Source: an uncultured Candidatus Saccharibacteria bacterium (GTDB taxonomy: Bacteria > Patescibacteriota > Saccharimonadia > Saccharimonadales > Saccharimonadaceae). Taken from it: a DNA stretch of 64,000 nt. The notes below the pieces were generated by a model. That model was not told the origin of the DNA and did no database searches. It saw only the letters and a list, made by a program, of their open reading frames with translations. Positions 3,894 through 46,766 of the stretch are shown piece after piece (the stretch's first letter is position 1; each line of letters starts with the position of its first letter). Made by a program: the position numbers and the translations under genes. Where the stretch lies: positions 62,211-126,210 of the forward strand of contig CAMZEA010000001.1 in the NCBI GenBank assembly GCA_947305655.1, in the 5' to 3' direction.

Positions 3894-5123
3894 CTAAAAA
3901 CCGTGATCGAAATAACGCGTAGAGCCAAATGGGATTTTGCATTTTACCTGTTCGGTGCCGAGTGTATCGGCGCAGTGAATTTTGCGGGCGCCAAAACGGT
4001 GATTAATAGCGTCGGTGGCGGCACAGACGGCGGCTTCGTCGTCTTTTTTGTTTTGGTCGAAAGATAGTTGAGGGGTTGGGCTGGTTTGGAGCTTATAAAG
4101 CGTGATGCCGGCGATGCGAACGGGGTTTGGTAGCTCGCGGAAAAGCCGGCGTGCGACCGTGGCGATAGCGTGGTCGGTATTGATTGCTTCTTTTAGGATG
4201 ATTTGGCGATGATAATGGATATCGTCGAGGCCAAAAACCCAGAGATAGACGCCGCGCGCGTAGAGCTCTTTGCTGCGCAGGCGGTAGCCGGCATCTTCGG
4301 CGAGGTGCACGATGCGCGCCTCGGTTTCTTTGCGGGTTAGAGTTTTGCTATCCATGACGTATTGGCGACCGACGGTTTTGATATCGCTAGCGTAGTCGTC
4401 GACTTCGATGCCGCGGAGGCGTAGATACCATTTGTGCCCGTCGATGCTCTTGCAGACGAGTTTTACGAGCGTCATTTCGTCGGCGTCAAGGAATTGGAGT
4501 GGCGTAAAAATTCCAACCGCGTTGAGACGAGCCTCCATGCGGACGTTAATGCCTGGTAAGTCGGTGAGTTTTAGCCCGGCAAAAATTTTGCGTTGGTTGT
4601 CTGATGTAATCTCGTCGAGACCGTCGGGTTTGTGAAGCTCGCCGGCGAGTTTGGCAAGGAAACGATTGCTCGCGATGCCGACATTGCAACGCATATGGCA
4701 GCCAATTTCGGATTTTAGGCGCTGTTTAATTTCGAGTCCGAGCTCGCGGCGGTCGCGGGCGTAAATATGAGCGGGCGCTTGCGTTAAATCAATGACACCT
4801 TCGTCGATTGACTTCATTGTGACGGCGGGCGAATAATCTGACATAATGCGGCGAAGCTTTTGGTGCACGAAAATGTATTTGTCGGGTTCAGTTTCGGCAT
4901 AAATGAGTTCTGGGCAGAGCGCGGAGGCTTCTCGCGTACGCATGCCGACCTTTACGCCGCGCGCTTTTGCCTCGTAGCTTGCGGCGATGATGCAAGAATT
5001 TGGCACAAGGCGATTTGTAATGGCGACGGGTCGACCGCGTAACATTGGCCGGCTTTGTTGCTCGATGGTGGCGAAGCAGGAATTGAGATCAATGTAGAGC
5101 GTGTCGTTCTTTAACTCAGACAT
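3894..5123 (-). CDS. Y-family (UmuC/DinB-like) translesion DNA polymerase
   Basis: LYIDLNSCFATIEQ and SIDEGVIDL palm motifs. UmuC-type C-terminus ...DAINHRFGARKI.... Start set at the internal ATG 5123 (MSELKNDTLYIDL), which overlaps the stop of the upstream ORF (ATGTCTGA). The longer track ORF to 5207 would overlap that gene. Confidence 0.9.
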   Translation of the reverse strand: MSELKNDTLYIDLNSCFATIEQQSRPMLRGRPVAITNRLVPNSCIIAASYEAKARGVKVGMRTREASALCPELIYAETEPDKYIFVHQKLRRIMSDYSPAVTMKSIDEGVIDLTQAPAHIYARDRRELGLEIKQRLKSEIGCHMRCNVGIASNRFLAKLAGELHKPDGLDEITSDNQRKIFAGLKLTDLPGINVRMEARLNAVGIFTPLQFLDADEMTLVKLVCKSIDGHKWYLRLRGIEVDDYASDIKTVGRQYVMDSKTLTRKETEARIVHLAEDAGYRLRSKELYARGVYLWVFGLDDIHYHRQIILKEAINTDHAIATVARRLFRELPNPVRIAGITLYKLQTSPTPQLSFDQNKKDDEAAVCAATDAINHRFGARKIHCADTLGTEQVKCKIPFGSTRYFDHGF

Positions 5124-5397
5124 ATTGGTCTCCTTCAAATTCGAGATACCAGCAGAGCGATTCGCTGTCGAGTGCGATGCGGTAGTCGGTGGAGCCGTCC
5201 GTGACATCGAAGGCGAAGATGGTTTTTAGTCCGTCGTAGCGTGGGTGGACGAGGCCGATTTCGCTAATCTGAACTTCTCTGCCGGTGCCGAGGCGGAACG
5301 CGATTGGTCGGCAGTGACCGAGGATGCCGCGCGAAAAAGTCGCGTCGACGTCGATTGGTTCGTGAAGTGGGTTTTGATAAGAGTTAGATTGATCCAT
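5116..5397 (-). CDS. 93-aa conserved hypothetical protein, translationally coupled to the Y-family polymerase; paralog of 30486..30746
   Basis: 8-nt start/stop overlap with the polymerase gene. Shares C-x-P-[IL]-x-F-R ... I-[ST]-E ... F-x3-V ... L-x2-D-S-x-S-L-x-W-x-L with the 86-aa ORF at 30486..30746. Confidence 0.75.
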   Translation of the reverse strand: MDQSNSYQNPLHEPIDVDATFSRGILGHCRPIAFRLGTGREVQISEIGLVHPRYDGLKTIFAFDVTDGSTDYRIALDSESLCWYLEFEGDQYV

Positions 5398-5460
5398 AAA
5401 AATCCTTTTGACGGTTAATAATAGGGGTGGTGACGCAATATTGGCGTCGGAAATTTATGA

Positions 5461-5490
5461 ATCAAAGCCAGTGACCGAAGTGTAGCTTGA
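5461..5490 (-). promoter_or_regulatory. 5'-terminal mRNA hairpin with UUCG loop (copy A), directly after a TGCTAAAAT -10 box (5498-5506)
   Basis: mRNA sense ATCAAGC-tac-ACTTCGGT-cactg-GCTTTGAT. The 13-nt core ACTTCGGTCACTG is identical to copy B at 30856-30883. Confidence 0.45.
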
Positions 5491-5507
5491 TAGTATTATT
5501 TTAGCAT

Positions 5508-5541
5508 AAAAAACACGGTTGTCGTAATGAAACGGCAACCG
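5508..5541 (-). terminator. Intrinsic terminator downstream of the small ORF 5561..5773
   Basis: Minus-sense CGGTTGCCG-tttcatta-CGACAACCG followed by TGTTTTTT. Confidence 0.6.
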
Positions 5542-5560
5542 CGCGCTAAAGGCTAGAAGA

Positions 5561-5773
5561 TTACTGCATACCGAGTCTGCTGCGAACGTCGTCGGGGAGA
5601 CGGCCCGAAGTTGATTCGATTTTGGACAACGTAGAGTAGTCGAGCCTTACGTCCTGGTTGTTTCTAGCAGCCATAATGATGTCTCTTCTGCATTCATCAT
5701 AGCCGGACTGAGTCGCAATATAGCCTTTGCTACCAGTAGAAGTACTGAGGGTGAAATCTGACACACATACCAC
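5561..5773 (-). CDS. Small hypothetical protein (67-70 aa, start uncertain)
   Basis: ORF with AAAGGAGG upstream. The track start GTG 5773 abuts the SD, so GTG at 5764 (8-nt spacing) is more plausible. It has its own terminator at 5508-5541. No recognisable motif. Confidence 0.45.
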   Translation of the reverse strand: MVCVSDFTLSTSTGSKGYIATQSGYDECRRDIIMAARNNQDVRLDYSTLSKIESTSGRLPDDVRSRLGMQ

Positions 5774-5873
5774 CTCCTTTCATGATAGGATGTGTCAAAA
5801 TGTATCACCTGGAAGGTGCATTAAACAAGTAACACTCGAATTATACAATTTTTGATAAAAAATGTCAATAGTT

Positions 5874-29187: not shown

Positions 29188-30416
29188 AGTATGCTCTTTC
29201 CTGAGATGATTTTGCGTATTTCTAGCATGGCAGTATAGGTGGCAAAAATGCGTTTTGGTTTTTCGCCGTTCTTTGTGAATCTCTCGATGGCGGCCTTTAG
29301 GTCTTCGACGACTGCGCCGGTTTCGATTTCGTCATATTTGAGGCGTAGTGCCATGTCGGTTGCGCGAACGCCGGAAACGACTTTGACGTGCTTTAGGCCC
29401 TTGAAGTTTACGTTCCAGAGCCAGGAGACGTCGCGCCCGTCGGCAATTGCGTCATTAATGGCAATCATATATTCATGTTCGTCGTCGACGAAGGAAGCAA
29501 GGCTGAGCTGGAAGGCGCTTGGGTTTTTGACGAGTAATAGCTCGACTTCGGCGCCGTTAATCATGAAAGTTTCGCCACGCCCAAATGCGGACTTAATTTT
29601 CGCAAGTGATTCGATTAGTCTCGCGTTGTCGCTGTCCGGTAAGACGGTCTTTACGAGCGCGAGCGCACCGGCGGCGTTATAGGCATTGTATATGCCTTTG
29701 ACGTTTAACGAAGCTGTATATTCTTCTTTGCCGATTGTGAAAGTGGCTTCTTTGCCTAGTTTTTCTAGCGTAGCGAGGGCTGGCTTTCTTGATGCCTTCT
29801 CCCTGTGTTTCGTGAGTAGATCGTCGTCGGATGGGAACTCGCCAATCAACTCGTCGGAGAGCCCGAAATAGACGGTGCTTTTAGCTTCAATTTTGCCAAT
29901 GCGCGGATCTTCGCGGTTTAGGATAACTGCTTTCTTGGTGGCCTTTGCGACTTTTTTAAGGCAGTCGGCGGTGTGGTCGATTTCTCCGAAGCGGTCGAGC
30001 TGGTCGCGCTGGACGTTGAGCAGCAATGCATAGTCGATCGGCGCAACCTCACTGTATTTGACAGCGTGTGCCTCGTCGAGTTCTAGAACGGCGATATCAT
30101 AATCGAATTTGCCGCTAATTTTGATGTTCTTCAAGATGGCGGAAATGACGCCGCGGACAAAGTTGCTACCGGTGTTATTCGTGAAGACTTTGAGTCCCTG
30201 TGCTTCAAAAAGTTCGGCGACCATTTTGGTTGTCGTGGTTTTACCGTTAGTACCGGAAACTACGACGACGCCATAGGGCAGTTTGCCGAGAATGTCGCGG
30301 ACAAAATGCGGGTCTCTGCGTTCGACGACGAGGCCTGGTAAGGCAGAACCGCCGTTACCGCGTAAACGGGTGAGTTTTTGAACGGTTTTACCGAGAATTA
30401 TGCTCGTTTTCTTCAT
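29184..30416 (-). CDS. murT: Lipid II isoglutaminyl synthase, Mur-ligase-like subunit MurT
   Basis: VSGTNGKTTTT P-loop and Mur-ligase middle-domain layout. Coupled to gatD. Confidence 0.85.
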   Translation of the reverse strand: MKKTSIILGKTVQKLTRLRGNGGSALPGLVVERRDPHFVRDILGKLPYGVVVVSGTNGKTTTTKMVAELFEAQGLKVFTNNTGSNFVRGVISAILKNIKISGKFDYDIAVLELDEAHAVKYSEVAPIDYALLLNVQRDQLDRFGEIDHTADCLKKVAKATKKAVILNREDPRIGKIEAKSTVYFGLSDELIGEFPSDDDLLTKHREKASRKPALATLEKLGKEATFTIGKEEYTASLNVKGIYNAYNAAGALALVKTVLPDSDNARLIESLAKIKSAFGRGETFMINGAEVELLLVKNPSAFQLSLASFVDDEHEYMIAINDAIADGRDVSWLWNVNFKGLKHVKVVSGVRATDMALRLKYDEIETGAVVEDLKAAIERFTKNGEKPKRIFATYTAMLEIRKIISGKSIL

Positions 30417-30446
30417 AAAATATCCATATTCATTATACCACGAAAG

Positions 30447-30468
30447 AAAAATAGCCCGTTTGGGGCTA
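30447..30468 (-). terminator. Intrinsic terminator after the 86-aa gene
   Basis: Minus-sense TAGCCC-caaac-GGGCTA followed by TTTTT. Confidence 0.55.
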
Positions 30469-30485
30469 CTCTTCGGGGCGCTCGA

Positions 30486-30746
30486 TTAGCCTTCGGTCAG
30501 CGTCCATGCGAGGGACGTCGAATCGAATTCGAGCTGGCAATGCATTTTGCCGACGACACATTGGAAGATGTGCTTGGCAGTATTGCCGACGAACTTGATG
30601 CGAGCACCGATAGTTTCGGTAATCTCGATCTTGTCCTCCCCTGCTTTTCGAAAGTAAAGCGGCTGGCATGGGATGCGGCTGTAGTTAAACAGCGCCATGA
30701 CCTCGACCGGTTCACTTTTGGCTAATTGGTTGTTAATGTTTTTCAT
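30486..30746 (-). CDS. 86-aa conserved hypothetical protein, paralog of the polymerase-coupled 93-aa ORF
   Basis: AAGGAG SD 7 nt before the ATG. Shared motifs with 5116..5397: PCQPLYFRK / HCRPIAFRL; IEITETIG / VQISEIGL; LEFDSTSLAWTL / IALDSESLCWYL. Confidence 0.75.
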   Translation of the reverse strand: MKNINNQLAKSEPVEVMALFNYSRIPCQPLYFRKAGEDKIEITETIGARIKFVGNTAKHIFQCVVGKMHCQLEFDSTSLAWTLTEG

Positions 30747-30855
30747 AAATTACTCCTTAAATTGATTAGATTTTTTGGAGTCATTTATGTGAGCCATGGT
30801 TTTCGGCTCGGTGCCGCCCGCACAATGACGAGATGCAGACGACGATGCGCATTAC

Positions 30856-30883
30856 CGATAACAGTGACCGAAGTATGTTATCG
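30856..30883 (-). promoter_or_regulatory. 5'-terminal mRNA hairpin with UUCG loop (copy B), 7 nt after a TATAAT box (30891-30896)
   Basis: mRNA sense CGATAACA-t-ACTTCGGT-cac-TGTTATCG. Same 13-nt core as copy A, with a different but still complementary outer stem. Confidence 0.45.
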
Positions 30884-31073
30884 TGATTTCATTATATATG
30901 GGTTATTCCGCTTATGCTAGTCTTGAAATGCGAGATTTTTCGAGGGGTAATAGCGTGGAAAAGCGGATTTTGGTCGGTGGATTAATTGTGGGTTAGTTTT
31001 TTGATTTTTGCCCAGAAACGGAAATGCTACGCTTGGTAGCGTAGCATCTGCGTGTGGTTAACCTTATAATTAT

Positions 31074-31102
31074 AGTATAGCACAGATTAGCTAAAAAGTC
31101 AA
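31074..31102 (-). promoter_or_regulatory. Orphan promoter, TTGACT-N17-TGcTATACT, in a gene-free interval
   Basis: Minus-sense TTGACT (31097-31102) and TATACT (31074-31079). Followed by the 9-bp hairpin ATGCTACGC/GCGTAGCAT at 31024-31047. Confidence 0.35.
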
Positions 31103-31117
31103 TAATATTGTGGCAAT

Positions 31118-31150
31118 CTAAAAGCTCGGTCGTCTTATTGACCGAGCTTT
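31118..31150 (-). terminator. Intrinsic terminator after the 110-aa gene
   Basis: AAAGCTCGGTC-8 nt-GACCGAGCTTT followed by T (11-bp stem). Confidence 0.7.
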
Positions 31151-31175
31151 GTAGAAAAGGTGCTGGGCGGACTAG

Positions 31176-31508
31176 TTAGATGCGCGCGAGGGCGGTGCAC
31201 CCGATAATCTGGCCGTCATTCCCGCGAACCGGGCCGGACGTTACCAGAAGATCGGCGCAAGTACGCCCCTCCGCTCTGGCCGCGTTAGCCGTAGTGATCG
31301 ACACGATGTAGTATGTGCCGTCGACGGGCGTCGGGAGACCTTCGGTCTTGCCGAACCGCATCGAGACTATGTCGATGCCGTTCAGGCTATCTACGACCTC
31401 TACTGTCTGAGTTGCCCGAGCAACGCCCTCACTCGGGAACGTTGCCTTTACTTTGCCGTCTGCGATAATTGACACCTCGTGAGGTGTCAGATTGATAATG
31501 TTTGCCAT
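31176..31508 (-). CDS. Hypothetical protein (110 aa, NLTPHE... N-terminus)
   Basis: GGAGGA SD 8 nt before the ATG. Clean ORF with its own consensus promoter and terminator. Confidence 0.75.
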   Translation of the reverse strand: MANIINLTPHEVSIIADGKVKATFPSEGVARATQTVEVVDSLNGIDIVSMRFGKTEGLPTPVDGTYYIVSITTANAARAEGRTCADLLVTSGPVRGNDGQIIGCTALARI

Positions 31509-46616: not shown

Positions 46617-46766
46617 AGATAGAAATCTCCTTTTGGTTATTAGTTTTGTAGCCAGAAAATGTTAAGGCTCGTCACCAATAATCTAGACATAAGATTTAAG
46701 AATCCTCGGTGGCATGATTAAGCCTTTCGGCCGCCACTGTCTTTGGTAACTTTCGATATTATAGCA
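46617..46766 (-). promoter_or_regulatory. rplJ promoter (TGCTATAAT, 46758-46766) and about 135-nt leader, a possible L10 autoregulatory leader
   Basis: The leader contains GUGGC-19 nt-GCCAC (sense GTGGCGGCCGAAAGGCTTAATCATGCCAC). The L10-leader role is inferred from position only. Confidence 0.4.

What the first reader, a model, noticed from the sequence alone, without database searches (positions are those of the whole stretch)
30747..30896. Same 5'-terminal UUCG hairpin, with compensatory stem changes, in front of both paralogous small genes
Each of the two paralogs (5116..5397 and 30486..30746) is preceded by a -10 box followed almost immediately by a hairpin.
- Copy A is at plus 5461-5490. 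Its mRNA sense is AUCAAGC-uac-ACUUCGGU-cacug-GCUUUGAU, starting a few nt after TGCTAAAAT.
- Copy B is at plus 30856-30883. Its mRNA sense is CGAUAACA-u-ACUUCGGU-cac-UGUUAUCG, starting 7 nt after TATAAT.

The 13-nt core ACUUCGGUCACUG is identical in both copies. It contains a C(UUCG)G tetraloop on a 2-bp stem plus an asymmetric CAC(UG) internal loop. The outer stems differ completely in sequence but stay complementary. That is covariation, which argues for an RNA structure rather than a DNA operator.

Both hairpins would sit at the very 5' end of the transcripts, ahead of ~75-nt and ~135-nt leaders. Possible roles are a shared protein-binding or stability element, or co-regulation of the polymerase operon and the orphan paralog, for example after DNA damage.
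Basis: seen in the sequence. Interest (0 to 1): 0.65.

Follow-up and report, generated by a model that had tools for sequence, protein, structure and literature searches.

The report
Conserved 5'-end hairpin of Saccharibacteria leaders
Two related small genes of a rumen Saccharibacteria genome, one of them fused in an operon with an error-prone DNA polymerase, start their mRNAs with the same conserved UUCG hairpin, the first part of previously undescribed structured leaders that hide the ribosome-binding site and start codon.

Summary
The 13-nt core ACTTCGGTCACTG occurs exactly twice in the window, each time 7 nt after a -10 box and between complementary arms. A covariance model finds only these two copies in 64 kb.

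It is an RNA structure. About 95 distinct versions from relatives keep the fold while the outer stem changes freely: 95% of cells pair, against 82% when shuffled and 5-30% when slid. The 2-bp inner stem switches AC/GU to GC/GC.

The hairpin (P1) is the first module of family-specific 5' leaders. Both leaders carry a conserved box complementary to the Shine-Dalgarno sequence and start codon. The B leader adds a covarying hairpin P2, whose invariant loop can pair with that box, and an invariant hairpin P3. No Rfam family matches.

A and B are distant paralogs of a DUF6504-like all-beta family that sits next to Y-family polymerase genes. In metagenomes every correctly folded P1 preceded a B gene.

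Most likely these are post-transcriptional control leaders. P1 probably caps the 5' end and serves as a specific recognition module. The factor that opens the leader is unknown. I rate it a new member of a known kind, of moderate interest.

The parts
30891..30896 (-). -10 box TATAAT of the B promoter; predicted start at about 30884
   Evidence: invariant T3 A4 A6 T8 in 69 sequences; 136 of 141 contexts have a -10 hexamer 3-8 nt (mode 7) before the first paired base.
30856..30883 (-). P1 of the B leader. Outer stem 30883-30876 with 30863-30856; bulged U at 30875; inner AC/GU at 30874-30873 with 30868-30867; UUCG loop at 30872-30869; CAC internal loop at 30866-30864.
30813..30843 (-). P2 hairpin of the B leader. 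Arms 30843-30834 and 30822-30813; invariant loop GUCAUU at 30829-30824.
   Evidence: 9 of 10 pairs have changes on both sides; the loop is invariant.
30791..30809 (-). P3 hairpin GAGCC...GGCUC. The stem sequence is invariant; the loop varies.
   Evidence: 69/69 at all five pairs; no covariation is possible.
30777..30789 (-). Box CAUAAAUGACUCC. It is complementary to the SD-to-AUG segment; its AAAUGAC part is also complementary to the P2 loop.
   Evidence: near invariant; pseudoknot 100% paired; 92.7% paired; (helix worth about -10.9 kcal/mol).
30744..30756 (-). Shine-Dalgarno GGAG to start codon of B (GGAGUAAUUUAUG), the partner of the box.
30486..30746 (-). Gene B: an 86-aa all-beta protein, an orphan paralog in the DUF6504-like family. 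It is monocistronic, with a terminator-like hairpin at about 30443-30467.
5498..5506 (-). Extended -10 TGCTAAAAT of the A-polymerase operon promoter; predicted start at about 5491-5492.
5461..5491 (-). P1 of the A leader: AUCAAGC / GCUU(U)GAU outer stem with a 3' bulge and the same apical core.
5454..5463 (-). Box GAUUCAUAAA of the A leader, complementary to UUUAUGGAUC (5400-5391: start codon plus first codons). Its GAU can instead close the base of P1.
   Evidence: 10 pairs kept in 8 sequences; in the minimum-energy fold.
5432..5448 (-). Invariant second hairpin GACGC-caauauu-GCGUC of the A leader.
5116..5397 (-). Gene A: a 93-aa paralog of B. Its stop overlaps the start of the polymerase gene (ATGTCTGA).
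3894..5123 (-). Y-family (IMS, DinB-like) DNA polymerase, translationally coupled to A.

Best explanation
The hairpin (P1) is an RNA structure at the very 5' end of two mRNAs. One is the operon of small protein A plus a Y-family translesion polymerase. The other encodes the orphan paralog B.

P1 is the first module of family-specific, structured 5' leaders that act after transcription. In both leaders a conserved box just downstream (A) or about 70 nt downstream (B) pairs with the Shine-Dalgarno sequence and the start codon. The thermodynamic ground state therefore blocks translation.

In B, the invariant loop of a second, covarying hairpin (P2) can pair with the same box as a pseudoknot, which would free the ribosome-binding site. 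In A, the base of P1 competes with the box helix for the same GAU.

P1 itself most likely does two things.
- It leaves no single-stranded 5' end, which would protect the mRNA from 5'-end-dependent decay.
- Its invariant apical part (A-N-[A/G]C-UUCG-G[U/C]-C-[A/C]-C-U) is a specific recognition module for a factor shared by both mRNAs. The small A/B proteins themselves are the simplest candidates (feedback control).

**Shown:** the structure, its conservation, its position next to the promoter, its restriction to this gene family, and the complementarity of the box to SD/AUG.

**Inferred:** the 5' end itself, the effects on stability and translation, the switch, and the identity of any bound factor.
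For: **Structure of P1.**
- 49 distinct P1 sequences from 74 B loci all fold alike.
- In a gapless alignment of 80 distinct P1 sequences, 95.4% of cells pair, against 82.2 +/- 0.9% when shuffled (0 of 500 shuffles reach it) and 5-30% when slid. 71 cells change on both sides, against 22.8 expected.
- In A-type leaders the inner stem switches AC/GU to GC/GC.

**Sense-strand RNA.** G-U pairs versus A-C mismatches: 145:14 in P2, 30:13 in P1, 50:0 in the pseudoknot.

**5'-terminal position.**
- -10 hexamer to stem spacing has a mode of 7 nt; 136 of 141 contexts have a -10 hexamer.
- B-mRNA contigs in six metatranscriptomes end at 30855-30866 with nothing upstream.

**Leader logic.**
- P2 covaries at 9 of 10 pairs. 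The pseudoknot is 100% paired, with only wobble-keeping changes.
- Box to SD-AUG is 92.7% paired.
- G in CAUAGAUGAC goes with C in ACUAUG in 5 of 7 cases, against 1 of 62 for A.
- The minimum-energy folds of both window leaders sequester SD and AUG, a helix worth about -10.9 kcal/mol in B. RNAalifold finds the same helix in 8 A-type leaders.

**Specificity.**
- Only two hits in the window and one per locus in 89 sources.
- Of 120 metagenome matches, all 71 with the P1 fold are B-type: 65 precede a B gene, and 6 on cut contigs are identified by their flanks.
- In L323 the A-type leader directly precedes the polymerase gene.
Against: - No 5' end was mapped directly. One metatranscriptome (X13) and two runs of uncertain type cover the region upstream of the hairpin at equal depth. 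That could be read-through from an upstream promoter or DNA carry-over.
- The pseudoknot, P3 and most of the box helix are invariant, so covariation cannot prove them. The one compensatory case may be a single event in one subclade.
- The B model has no structural relative in the PDB and no recognisable RNA-binding fold.
- UNCG loops are usually folding nucleators rather than protein sites.
- In L323 gene A itself lacks the leader, so strict self-regulation of A is not universal.
- More distant family members next to polymerases lack P1.
Confidence: 0.6

Rival explanations
1. P1 is only a structural cap or folding nucleator. It is a very stable UUCG hairpin at +1 that protects the 5' end and guides co-transcriptional folding, with no specific trans-acting partner. 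Regulation would then come from folding kinetics: the pseudoknot or P1 base forms first and gives a short window for translation before the SD/AUG helix forms.
For: - The position is fixed at the predicted +1.
- cUUCGg loops are classic stability elements (established knowledge). The rare loop variants are UACG, also a UNCG loop, and UUAG.
- The 2-bp inner stem needs such a loop to be stable at all.
- The protein shows no RNA-binding fold.
Against: - A pure cap would not need the invariant closing A-U, the C-[A/C]-C 3' internal loop or the fixed 1 x 3 asymmetry.
- These features are kept across paralogs that share only about 26% protein identity.
Confidence: 0.25
2. The B leader is a riboswitch. 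P1, P2, P3 and the pseudoknot form an aptamer for a small molecule, perhaps one linked to nucleotide or DNA-damage metabolism. Ligand binding shifts the box between the P2 loop and SD/AUG.
For: - A multi-stem architecture with variable stems, invariant loops and junctions, and a pseudoknot overlapping an SD-sequestering platform.
- The fold z-score is -2.9.
- No known family matches.
Against: - The A-type leader keeps P1 but lacks P2 and P3, and is too simple for the same aptamer.
- The element is tied to one protein family of unknown function, not to a metabolic pathway.
- No candidate ligand follows from the context.
Confidence: 0.12
3. The inverted repeat is a DNA operator for a repressor (LexA-like or other) that overlaps the transcription start.
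For: It lies directly downstream of the -10 box, in front of a translesion polymerase operon, where SOS boxes are common.
Against: - The arm sequences are not conserved; they covary.
- The conserved core is asymmetric and sits in the 'spacer'.
- G-T pairs are tolerated on the sense strand only.
- Bulges differ between clades.
- No GAAC/GTTC-type box is visible in either promoter.
Confidence: 0.03
4. The hairpin is an intrinsic terminator or attenuator, or the end of a separate small RNA, rather than the 5' end of the mRNA.
For: In the window's subclade an independent small transcription unit with its own promoter and terminator lies about 130 nt upstream. Some RNA contigs run through the region.
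Against: - No U tract follows P1, and the terminator scan does not call it.
- Each P1 has its own -10 box at a fixed distance.
- The upstream unit is absent from 56 of 74 B loci, which still have P1.
Confidence: 0.03

Closest known systems
5'-terminal stabiliser hairpins of bacterial mRNAs (E. coli ompA hp1, B. subtilis aprE and ermC leaders); from my own knowledge, not checked in papers here
   Same: A stem-loop starts within 0-2 nt of the transcript start and leaves no single-stranded 5' end. It lies in a long leader of a well-expressed small gene.
   Different: Those hairpins have no conserved loop or internal-loop sequence and are not shared between paralogs. Here the apical 14 nt are nearly invariant in about 95 variants, and the hairpin is coupled to an SD/AUG-masking box. 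The effect on stability is untested.
cspA-family 5' UTRs with the 5'-proximal 'cold box' (E. coli cold-shock paralogs); from my own knowledge
   Same: Small all-beta proteins are encoded by paralogous genes with long structured leaders. A short element conserved among the paralogs sits at the extreme 5' end. Alternative leader folds control translation, and feedback by the protein has been proposed.
   Different: There is no sequence or fold relation to cold-shock domains. A temperature signal is unlikely in a rumen organism. One paralog is coupled to a DNA polymerase.
Autogenous translational operators such as the phage T4 gene 32 leader (a 5' pseudoknot plus an A/U-rich stretch over the ribosome-binding site) and ribosomal-protein leaders (an L10 leader is present in this window)
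   Same: A structured 5' element is found only on the regulator's own mRNAs. In B it is a pseudoknot followed by an A/U-rich linker and a masked SD.
   Different: Binding of A or B to RNA is not shown, and the fold has no known nucleic-acid-binding relative. There is no homology to any Rfam leader.
SD-sequestering pseudoknot riboswitches and RNA thermometers (for example preQ1-II/III, SAM-II/V, ROSE and fourU)
   Same: Both use an expression platform in which a conserved box pairs either with SD/AUG or with an upstream loop.
   Different: No ligand is known and no Rfam model matches. The A-type version lacks the multi-stem part.
Small accessory genes upstream of Y-family polymerases (umuD-umuC, yolD-uvrX, imuA-imuB) under LexA control
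   Same: A small gene lies directly upstream of, and is translationally coupled to, an IMS polymerase gene. This cassette recurs in distant bacteria.
   Different: The small protein belongs to a DUF6504-like family, not to UmuD or YolD. Control appears to act on the RNA, not through an operator.

Membership tests
Any Rfam 15 family | Covariance-model match at or near the gathering score | tested here: not met
   The whole window at gathering scores gives only tRNAs and the L10 leader. Both leaders at E <= 10 give only noise hits well below the thresholds.
Conserved structured RNA (general criterion) | Base pairs maintained through compensatory changes in homologs, beyond shuffled and slid controls | tested here: met
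   P1: (95.4% against 82.2% shuffled; 0 of 500 shuffles reach it). P2: (9 of 10 pairs change on both sides). Inner-stem AU to GC.
UNCG tetraloop hairpin | A C(UNCG)G loop closed by a C-G pair | tested here: met
   C-UUCG-G is invariant in A5, apart from one UACG and one UUAG variant.
5'-terminal stabiliser hairpin | The stem begins within a few nt of the transcript 5' end | tested here: inconclusive
   The -10 to stem spacing has a mode of 7 nt. RNA contigs end at 30855-30866 in six runs, but three runs read through, and no true 5'-end data exist.
5'-terminal stabiliser hairpin | The hairpin lengthens mRNA half-life | not testable with these tools
   This needs decay measurements.
Intrinsic terminator / attenuator | A G+C-rich stem followed by a U run | tested here: not met
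   The scan calls no terminator at either P1. The tails are GGUAAUGC and UCAUAAAU.
LexA/SOS-type DNA operator | Conserved palindromic half-sites at a fixed spacing | tested here: not met
   42 different 5'-arm heptamers occur. The arms covary rather than being conserved, and the conserved core is asymmetric.
Riboswitch | A conserved multi-stem aptamer plus an expression platform | tested here: inconclusive
   The B leader has both. The A leader has only P1, a small hairpin and the platform.
Riboswitch | Direct binding of a small-molecule ligand | not testable with these tools
   This needs in-line probing or ITC.
Autogenous (feedback) translational operator | The element is found only on the mRNAs of the regulator's own family | tested here: met
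   All 71 correctly folded P1 among 120 metagenome matches are B-type. There is one hit per locus in 89 sources and two in the window. The promoter-anchored pattern could not catch A-type promoters or cores with other -10 boxes.
Autogenous (feedback) translational operator | The encoded protein binds the element | not testable with these tools
   The model is a six-strand beta protein with no structural relative.
Pfam DUF6504 (proteins A and B) | A match to PF20114 at its gathering score | tested here: inconclusive
   A and B themselves give no hit. 29 of 71 profile-linked relatives hit PF20114, best E 1e-6. Membership is therefore transitive.
Paralogy of A and B | Significant sequence or profile similarity | tested here: met
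   hhalign gives probability 97.8% and E 1e-12 over 77 columns. BLASTP alone finds nothing.

The most novel reading that the evidence does not exclude
Saccharibacteria of this lineage control translesion synthesis at the RNA level rather than through a LexA operator. In this reading the abundant orphan protein B and its polymerase-coupled paralog A bind the shared P1 hairpin and keep both leaders in the SD/AUG-masked state. When A and B are drawn away, for example onto damaged or single-stranded DNA or onto the polymerase, both mRNAs open. That would be a gp32-like titration circuit built from a DUF6504-family protein and a new RNA motif.
Probability: 0.12. Interest if true: 0.85.

Novelty: new member of a known kind. 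Interest (0 to 1): 0.55.

Why it matters
Saccharibacteria are ultra-small, host-dependent bacteria with very few known regulators, and almost nothing is known about how they control gene expression.

This work defines a well-supported structured RNA leader in that group that matches no Rfam family. It has clear covariation, an explicit masking of the ribosome-binding site, and a module shared between two paralogous genes.

It also links an uncharacterised protein family (DUF6504-like) to Y-family polymerases in several bacterial groups. That gives a concrete handle on how error-prone DNA synthesis is kept in check in genomes where no operator is visible.

The motif is small enough (28-31 nt for P1, about 125 nt for the B leader) for direct biochemical tests.

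Tried and rejected
- **Rfam.** Searches at gathering and permissive thresholds gave nothing relevant.
- **BLASTP of A against B.** No alignment; the link was recovered only by profiles.
- **The 14-base core in viral contigs.** 120 or more matches. On my reading only a few have P1-like arms, and the filter was too loose to count them. I treated them as chance and used them as an informal null.
- **Promoter-anchored pattern in metagenomes.** 49 of 120 matches lack the arms, including one repeated human-gut sequence. These are chance matches or other hairpins such as GAGAC-UUCG-GUCUC terminators.
- **A relaxed regular expression.** It picked up a hairpin over the stop codon of B in a few loci (L044, L045, L047). 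It is unrelated.
- **RNAalifold on the MAFFT alignment.** It missed P1 because the 3'-arm bulges are misaligned. It proposed pairing P1's GGUC with the GACU of the box. Both segments are invariant, so this cannot be tested, and it is weak (-4.9 kcal/mol).
- **My strict stem-scoring script.** It undercounts stems with internal mismatches, so I relied instead.
- **Fold and sequence searches of the protein against the PDB.** No relative.
- **Literature searches.** Nothing on Saccharibacteria SOS or riboswitch motifs, or on DUF6504. Only a citation of a Patescibacteria LexA study, which is not held in the library.
- **RNA runs for the A locus.** Only one run of doubtful type holds it, so no 5'-end information exists for A.
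- **More distant family members (L336, L337, L339).** Checked for P1; absent.

Full report
**1. What is in the window**

On the minus strand, gene B (30486-30746, 86 aa) is preceded by these elements in order:
- TATAAT at 30896-30891
- seven bases
- the hairpin CGAUAACA-U-AC(UUCG)GU-CAC-UGUUAUCG at 30883-30856

Gene A (5116-5397, 93 aa) is preceded by these elements:
- TGCTAAAAT
- seven bases
- the hairpin AUCAAGC-UAC-AC(UUCG)GU-CACUG-GCUUUGAU at 5491-5461

The core ACTTCGGTCACTG occurs exactly twice. Both sequences fold as proposed.

A covariance model of the hairpin was scored over all 64 kb on both strands without filters. It finds these two sites (E 7.6e-11 and 3.2e-9) and then nothing better than E = 2.1.

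**2. The genes**

*Family assignment.*
- Neither small protein matches Pfam or NCBIfam.
- BLASTP finds no similarity between them.
- Profiles built from their relatives align with probability 97.8% and E 1e-12. They are true but distant paralogs, about 26% identical.

*Polymerase link.*
- The stop codon of A overlaps the start of a Y-family (IMS) DNA polymerase gene.
- The synteny UvrD/AddA-like helicase, small ORF, A, IMS polymerase, then PolA further on is kept in relatives.

*Fold.* The AlphaFold model of B is a confident six-strand all-beta protein (pLDDT 87.5). It has no structural or sequence relative in the PDB.

*Wider family.*
- A profile search of 1.8 billion representatives finds 117 clusters, nearly all proteins of 50-120 aa; three are multi-domain proteins of 458-1241 aa.
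- 29 of 71 distant members individually hit Pfam DUF6504, best E 1e-6.
- Three distant members also lie directly upstream of an IMS polymerase gene, or overlap it. One is in a 3.4-Mb genome next to an SRAP gene.

The family is therefore a conserved small partner of Y-family polymerases, and B is an orphan copy.

*Source.* The window comes from a rumen Candidatus Saccharibacteria MAG, or a very close strain of it. Locus L003 encodes an identical B protein.

**3. The hairpin is a conserved RNA structure**

*Conservation in B orthologs.* A protein-guided scan of one genome per species returned 80 B loci (312 confirmed in all). Of the 76 loci with upstream sequence:
- 74 carry [A/G]CTTCGG[T/C] about 135-155 nt before the ATG.
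- The other two carry UACG and UUAG loop variants.

*Fold.* The 49 distinct sequences all fold into one architecture:
- an outer stem of 7-10 bp, often with a single 3' bulge
- one unpaired base on the 5' side
- a 2-bp inner stem closed by UUCG
- a 3-nt 3' internal loop

*Covariation.* I added metagenome and A-type copies to reach 80 distinct sequences. These align without gaps because they are anchored on the core, not fitted to the structure. Counts for the four top outer pairs plus the two inner pairs:

| Measure | Observed | Controls |
|---|---|---|
| Cells paired | 95.4% | shuffled 82.2 +/- 0.9% (0 of 500 reach it); slid 5-30% |
| Cells changed on both sides | 71 | 22.8 expected |

- Three of the four outer pairs show four to five pair types.
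- The inner A-U becomes G-C in A-type leaders, together with CAC to CCC.

*Strand.* G-U pairs outnumber A-C mismatches, so the structure belongs to the sense-strand RNA and not to double-stranded DNA:

| Helix | G-U | A-C |
|---|---|---|
| P1 | 30 | 13 |
| P2 | 145 | 14 |
| Pseudoknot | 50 | 0 |

The arms have 42 different heptamers, and the conserved core is asymmetric. An operator is therefore excluded for practical purposes.

**4. Position at the 5' end**

*Promoter spacing.* In 141 distinct contexts, 136 have a -10 hexamer matching at least 5 of 6 positions, 3-8 nt before the first paired base. The mode is 7 nt, seen 80 times. Transcription would then start at, or one base before, the stem.

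*RNA evidence.* It is indirect, because only assembled contigs of metatranscriptomes are available.
- In six runs (X2, X4, X5, X6, X9, X11) the B-mRNA contigs cover the coding region and leader, with none of them reaching upstream of 30866. In five of those runs they stop at 30855-30866; in X11 the contig ends at 30801.
- Runs X9 and X3 have a separate contig over 31019-31074.
- X13, and the doubtful X1 and X3, cover the gap as well. That could be read-through or DNA.

This is consistent with a start near 30884 but is not proof.

*Expression.* B sequence is held by at least 18 RNA-type runs. The A locus is held by one doubtful run. That fits a well-expressed B and a silent polymerase operon. 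This is an inference from presence only.

**5. The hairpin is the first module of larger leaders**

*B leader.* Aligning 69 B leaders shows, after P1:
- **P2**, a long hairpin. 9 of its 10 pairs change on both sides, and its loop GUCAUU(U) is invariant.
- **P3**, a hairpin with an invariant stem GAGCC/GGCUC and a variable loop.
- **A near-invariant box**, CAUAAAUGACUC(C/U).
- **An A/U-rich linker**, then the SD and the AUG.

*What the box pairs with.* The box is an almost perfect complement of GGAGUnnUUUAUG.
- 92.7% of cells pair.
- The variant CAUAGAUGAC goes with ACUAUG in 5 of 7 cases, against 1 of 62 for the common form. This may be a single evolutionary event.

*Alternative pairing.* The AAAUGAC part of the box is also complementary to the P2 loop. 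All 483 cells pair, and the only changes keep a wobble pair. Covariation cannot prove this pseudoknot.

*Energies.*
- The minimum-energy fold of the window's B leader is P1 + P2 + P3 + box:SD-AUG.
- The masking helix contributes about -10.9 kcal/mol.
- The P2-loop:box duplex is about -7.3 kcal/mol.

*A leader.*
- P1 is followed at once by GAUUCAUAAA, which pairs with UUUAUG(G/A)AUC, the start codon plus four bases. This holds in all eight sequences and in the minimum-energy fold.
- The GAU of the box can instead close the base of P1, so the two helices compete.
- An invariant hairpin GACGC...GCGUC follows.

*L323.* In this relative the complete A-type promoter and leader stand directly in front of the polymerase gene, whose first codons (AUGAAUC) still match the box. 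Gene A has moved upstream, behind a promoter that abuts its ATG. The leader therefore serves the polymerase operon as such.

**6. How far the element reaches**

- No Rfam family matches.
- The model finds one hit per locus in 89 sources.

| Rows | What they are |
|---|---|
| 65 | Have the P1 fold and precede a B-family gene |
| 6 | Have the P1 fold and B-type flanks, on contigs cut before the gene |
| 49 | Lack the arms |

- No other gene class appeared. The pattern required TATAAT and an exact core, so A-type promoters and divergent cores were not sampled.
- The bare core in viral contigs behaves as chance.
- More distant family members lack P1. One of them (L336) still shows start-codon masking in its predicted fold.

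**7. Interpretation**

*Shown.* A strongly conserved, covarying RNA hairpin sits next to the promoter. It is shared by the leaders of two paralogous genes and restricted to them. In both leaders a conserved box is complementary to SD/AUG.

*Inferred.*
- P1 forms the 5' end and protects it.
- The leaders hold translation off by default.
- In B the P2-loop pseudoknot, and in A the base of P1, provide the alternative 'on' pairing.

*Why I favour a specific partner.* The apical nucleotides are invariant across paralogs that have diverged to 26% identity. That argues for a specific partner rather than a mere cap. The element occurs only on these mRNAs, so the encoded proteins are the simplest candidates. 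Nothing in the protein model supports or excludes this.

*Confidence in the alternatives.*
- Pure structural cap: 0.25
- Small-molecule riboswitch: 0.12
- DNA operator: 0.03
- Terminator or separate small RNA: 0.03

**8. Comparison and verdict**

In function the element resembles three known kinds:
- 5'-terminal stabiliser hairpins
- the cold box of the cspA paralogs
- autogenous operators such as the T4 gene 32 leader

Its platform resembles SD-masking pseudoknot switches. These comparisons rest on my own knowledge of those systems. It is not a member of any curated RNA family.

I class it as a new member of a known kind, the structured cis-regulatory mRNA leaders. It is of moderate interest because it lies in a poorly understood phylum and is attached to a translesion polymerase and an uncharacterised protein family.

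Noticed in passing
window 31014-31102 (-): An independent small transcription unit lies about 130 nt upstream of the B promoter. It has the promoter TTGACT-17-TG-TATACT, a start at about 31067, the segment GGUUAACCACACGCA, and the hairpin GAUGCUACGC/GCGUAGCAUU plus a U-rich tail, giving an RNA of about 55 nt. It is present in 18 of 74 B loci, with a compensatory UA-to-AU swap in the stem. Separate metatranscriptome contigs cover it. No Rfam family matches.
   Followed up: partly
window 30910-30928 (-): A conserved DNA element, TTTCAAGACTAGCATAAGC, lies over the -35 region of the B promoter. It occurs in the window's clade and its nearer relatives but not in the more distant B loci, which use TGnTATAAT promoters. 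It may be a regulator or sigma-factor site, so B may also be controlled at the level of transcription.
   Followed up: no
L323:2480-3125: In one relative, gene A has separated from the polymerase. It sits behind a promoter that abuts its ATG (leaderless-like). The full P1 leader directly precedes the polymerase gene, which begins with the same AUGAAUC as A genes.
   Followed up: partly
window 5116-5397 and 30486-30746; L336, L337, L339: The A/B proteins are a divergent branch of Pfam DUF6504. The cassette of a small DUF6504-like gene followed by an IMS polymerase gene recurs in distant bacteria, including a 3.4-Mb genome where it lies next to an SRAP gene. This suggests an uncharacterised accessory subunit of the polymerase.
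   Followed up: partly
window 30300-31200 versus 4900-5800: B sequence is held by at least 18 metatranscriptome runs from ruminant guts. The A/polymerase locus is held by only one run of doubtful type. This fits a constitutively expressed B and a silent polymerase operon.
   Followed up: partly
window 5312-5324 (-): A near-copy of the core (TCCTCGGTCACTG, 2 mismatches) lies inside the coding region of A, in the codons for GILGHC. It has no flanking arms and is probably chance.
   Followed up: no
window 46645-46764 (-): A ribosomal protein L10 leader (Rfam RF00557, 54.5 bits) is present. This shows that protein-binding autoregulatory leaders are used in this genome.
   Followed up: no
L044:1761, L045:309, L047:1761: A hairpin with a GGC-UAAG-GCC apex spans the stop codon of B in a few relatives. 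A separate terminator hairpin follows it. It is unrelated to P1.
   Followed up: no
window 5561-5773 (-) and the equivalent ORFs in L325-L333: A small ORF of 53-73 aa always lies between the helicase gene and the A promoter, and it ends in the terminator that abuts the promoter. Its sequence is not obviously conserved; L002 has a CxxC-rich version.
   Followed up: no
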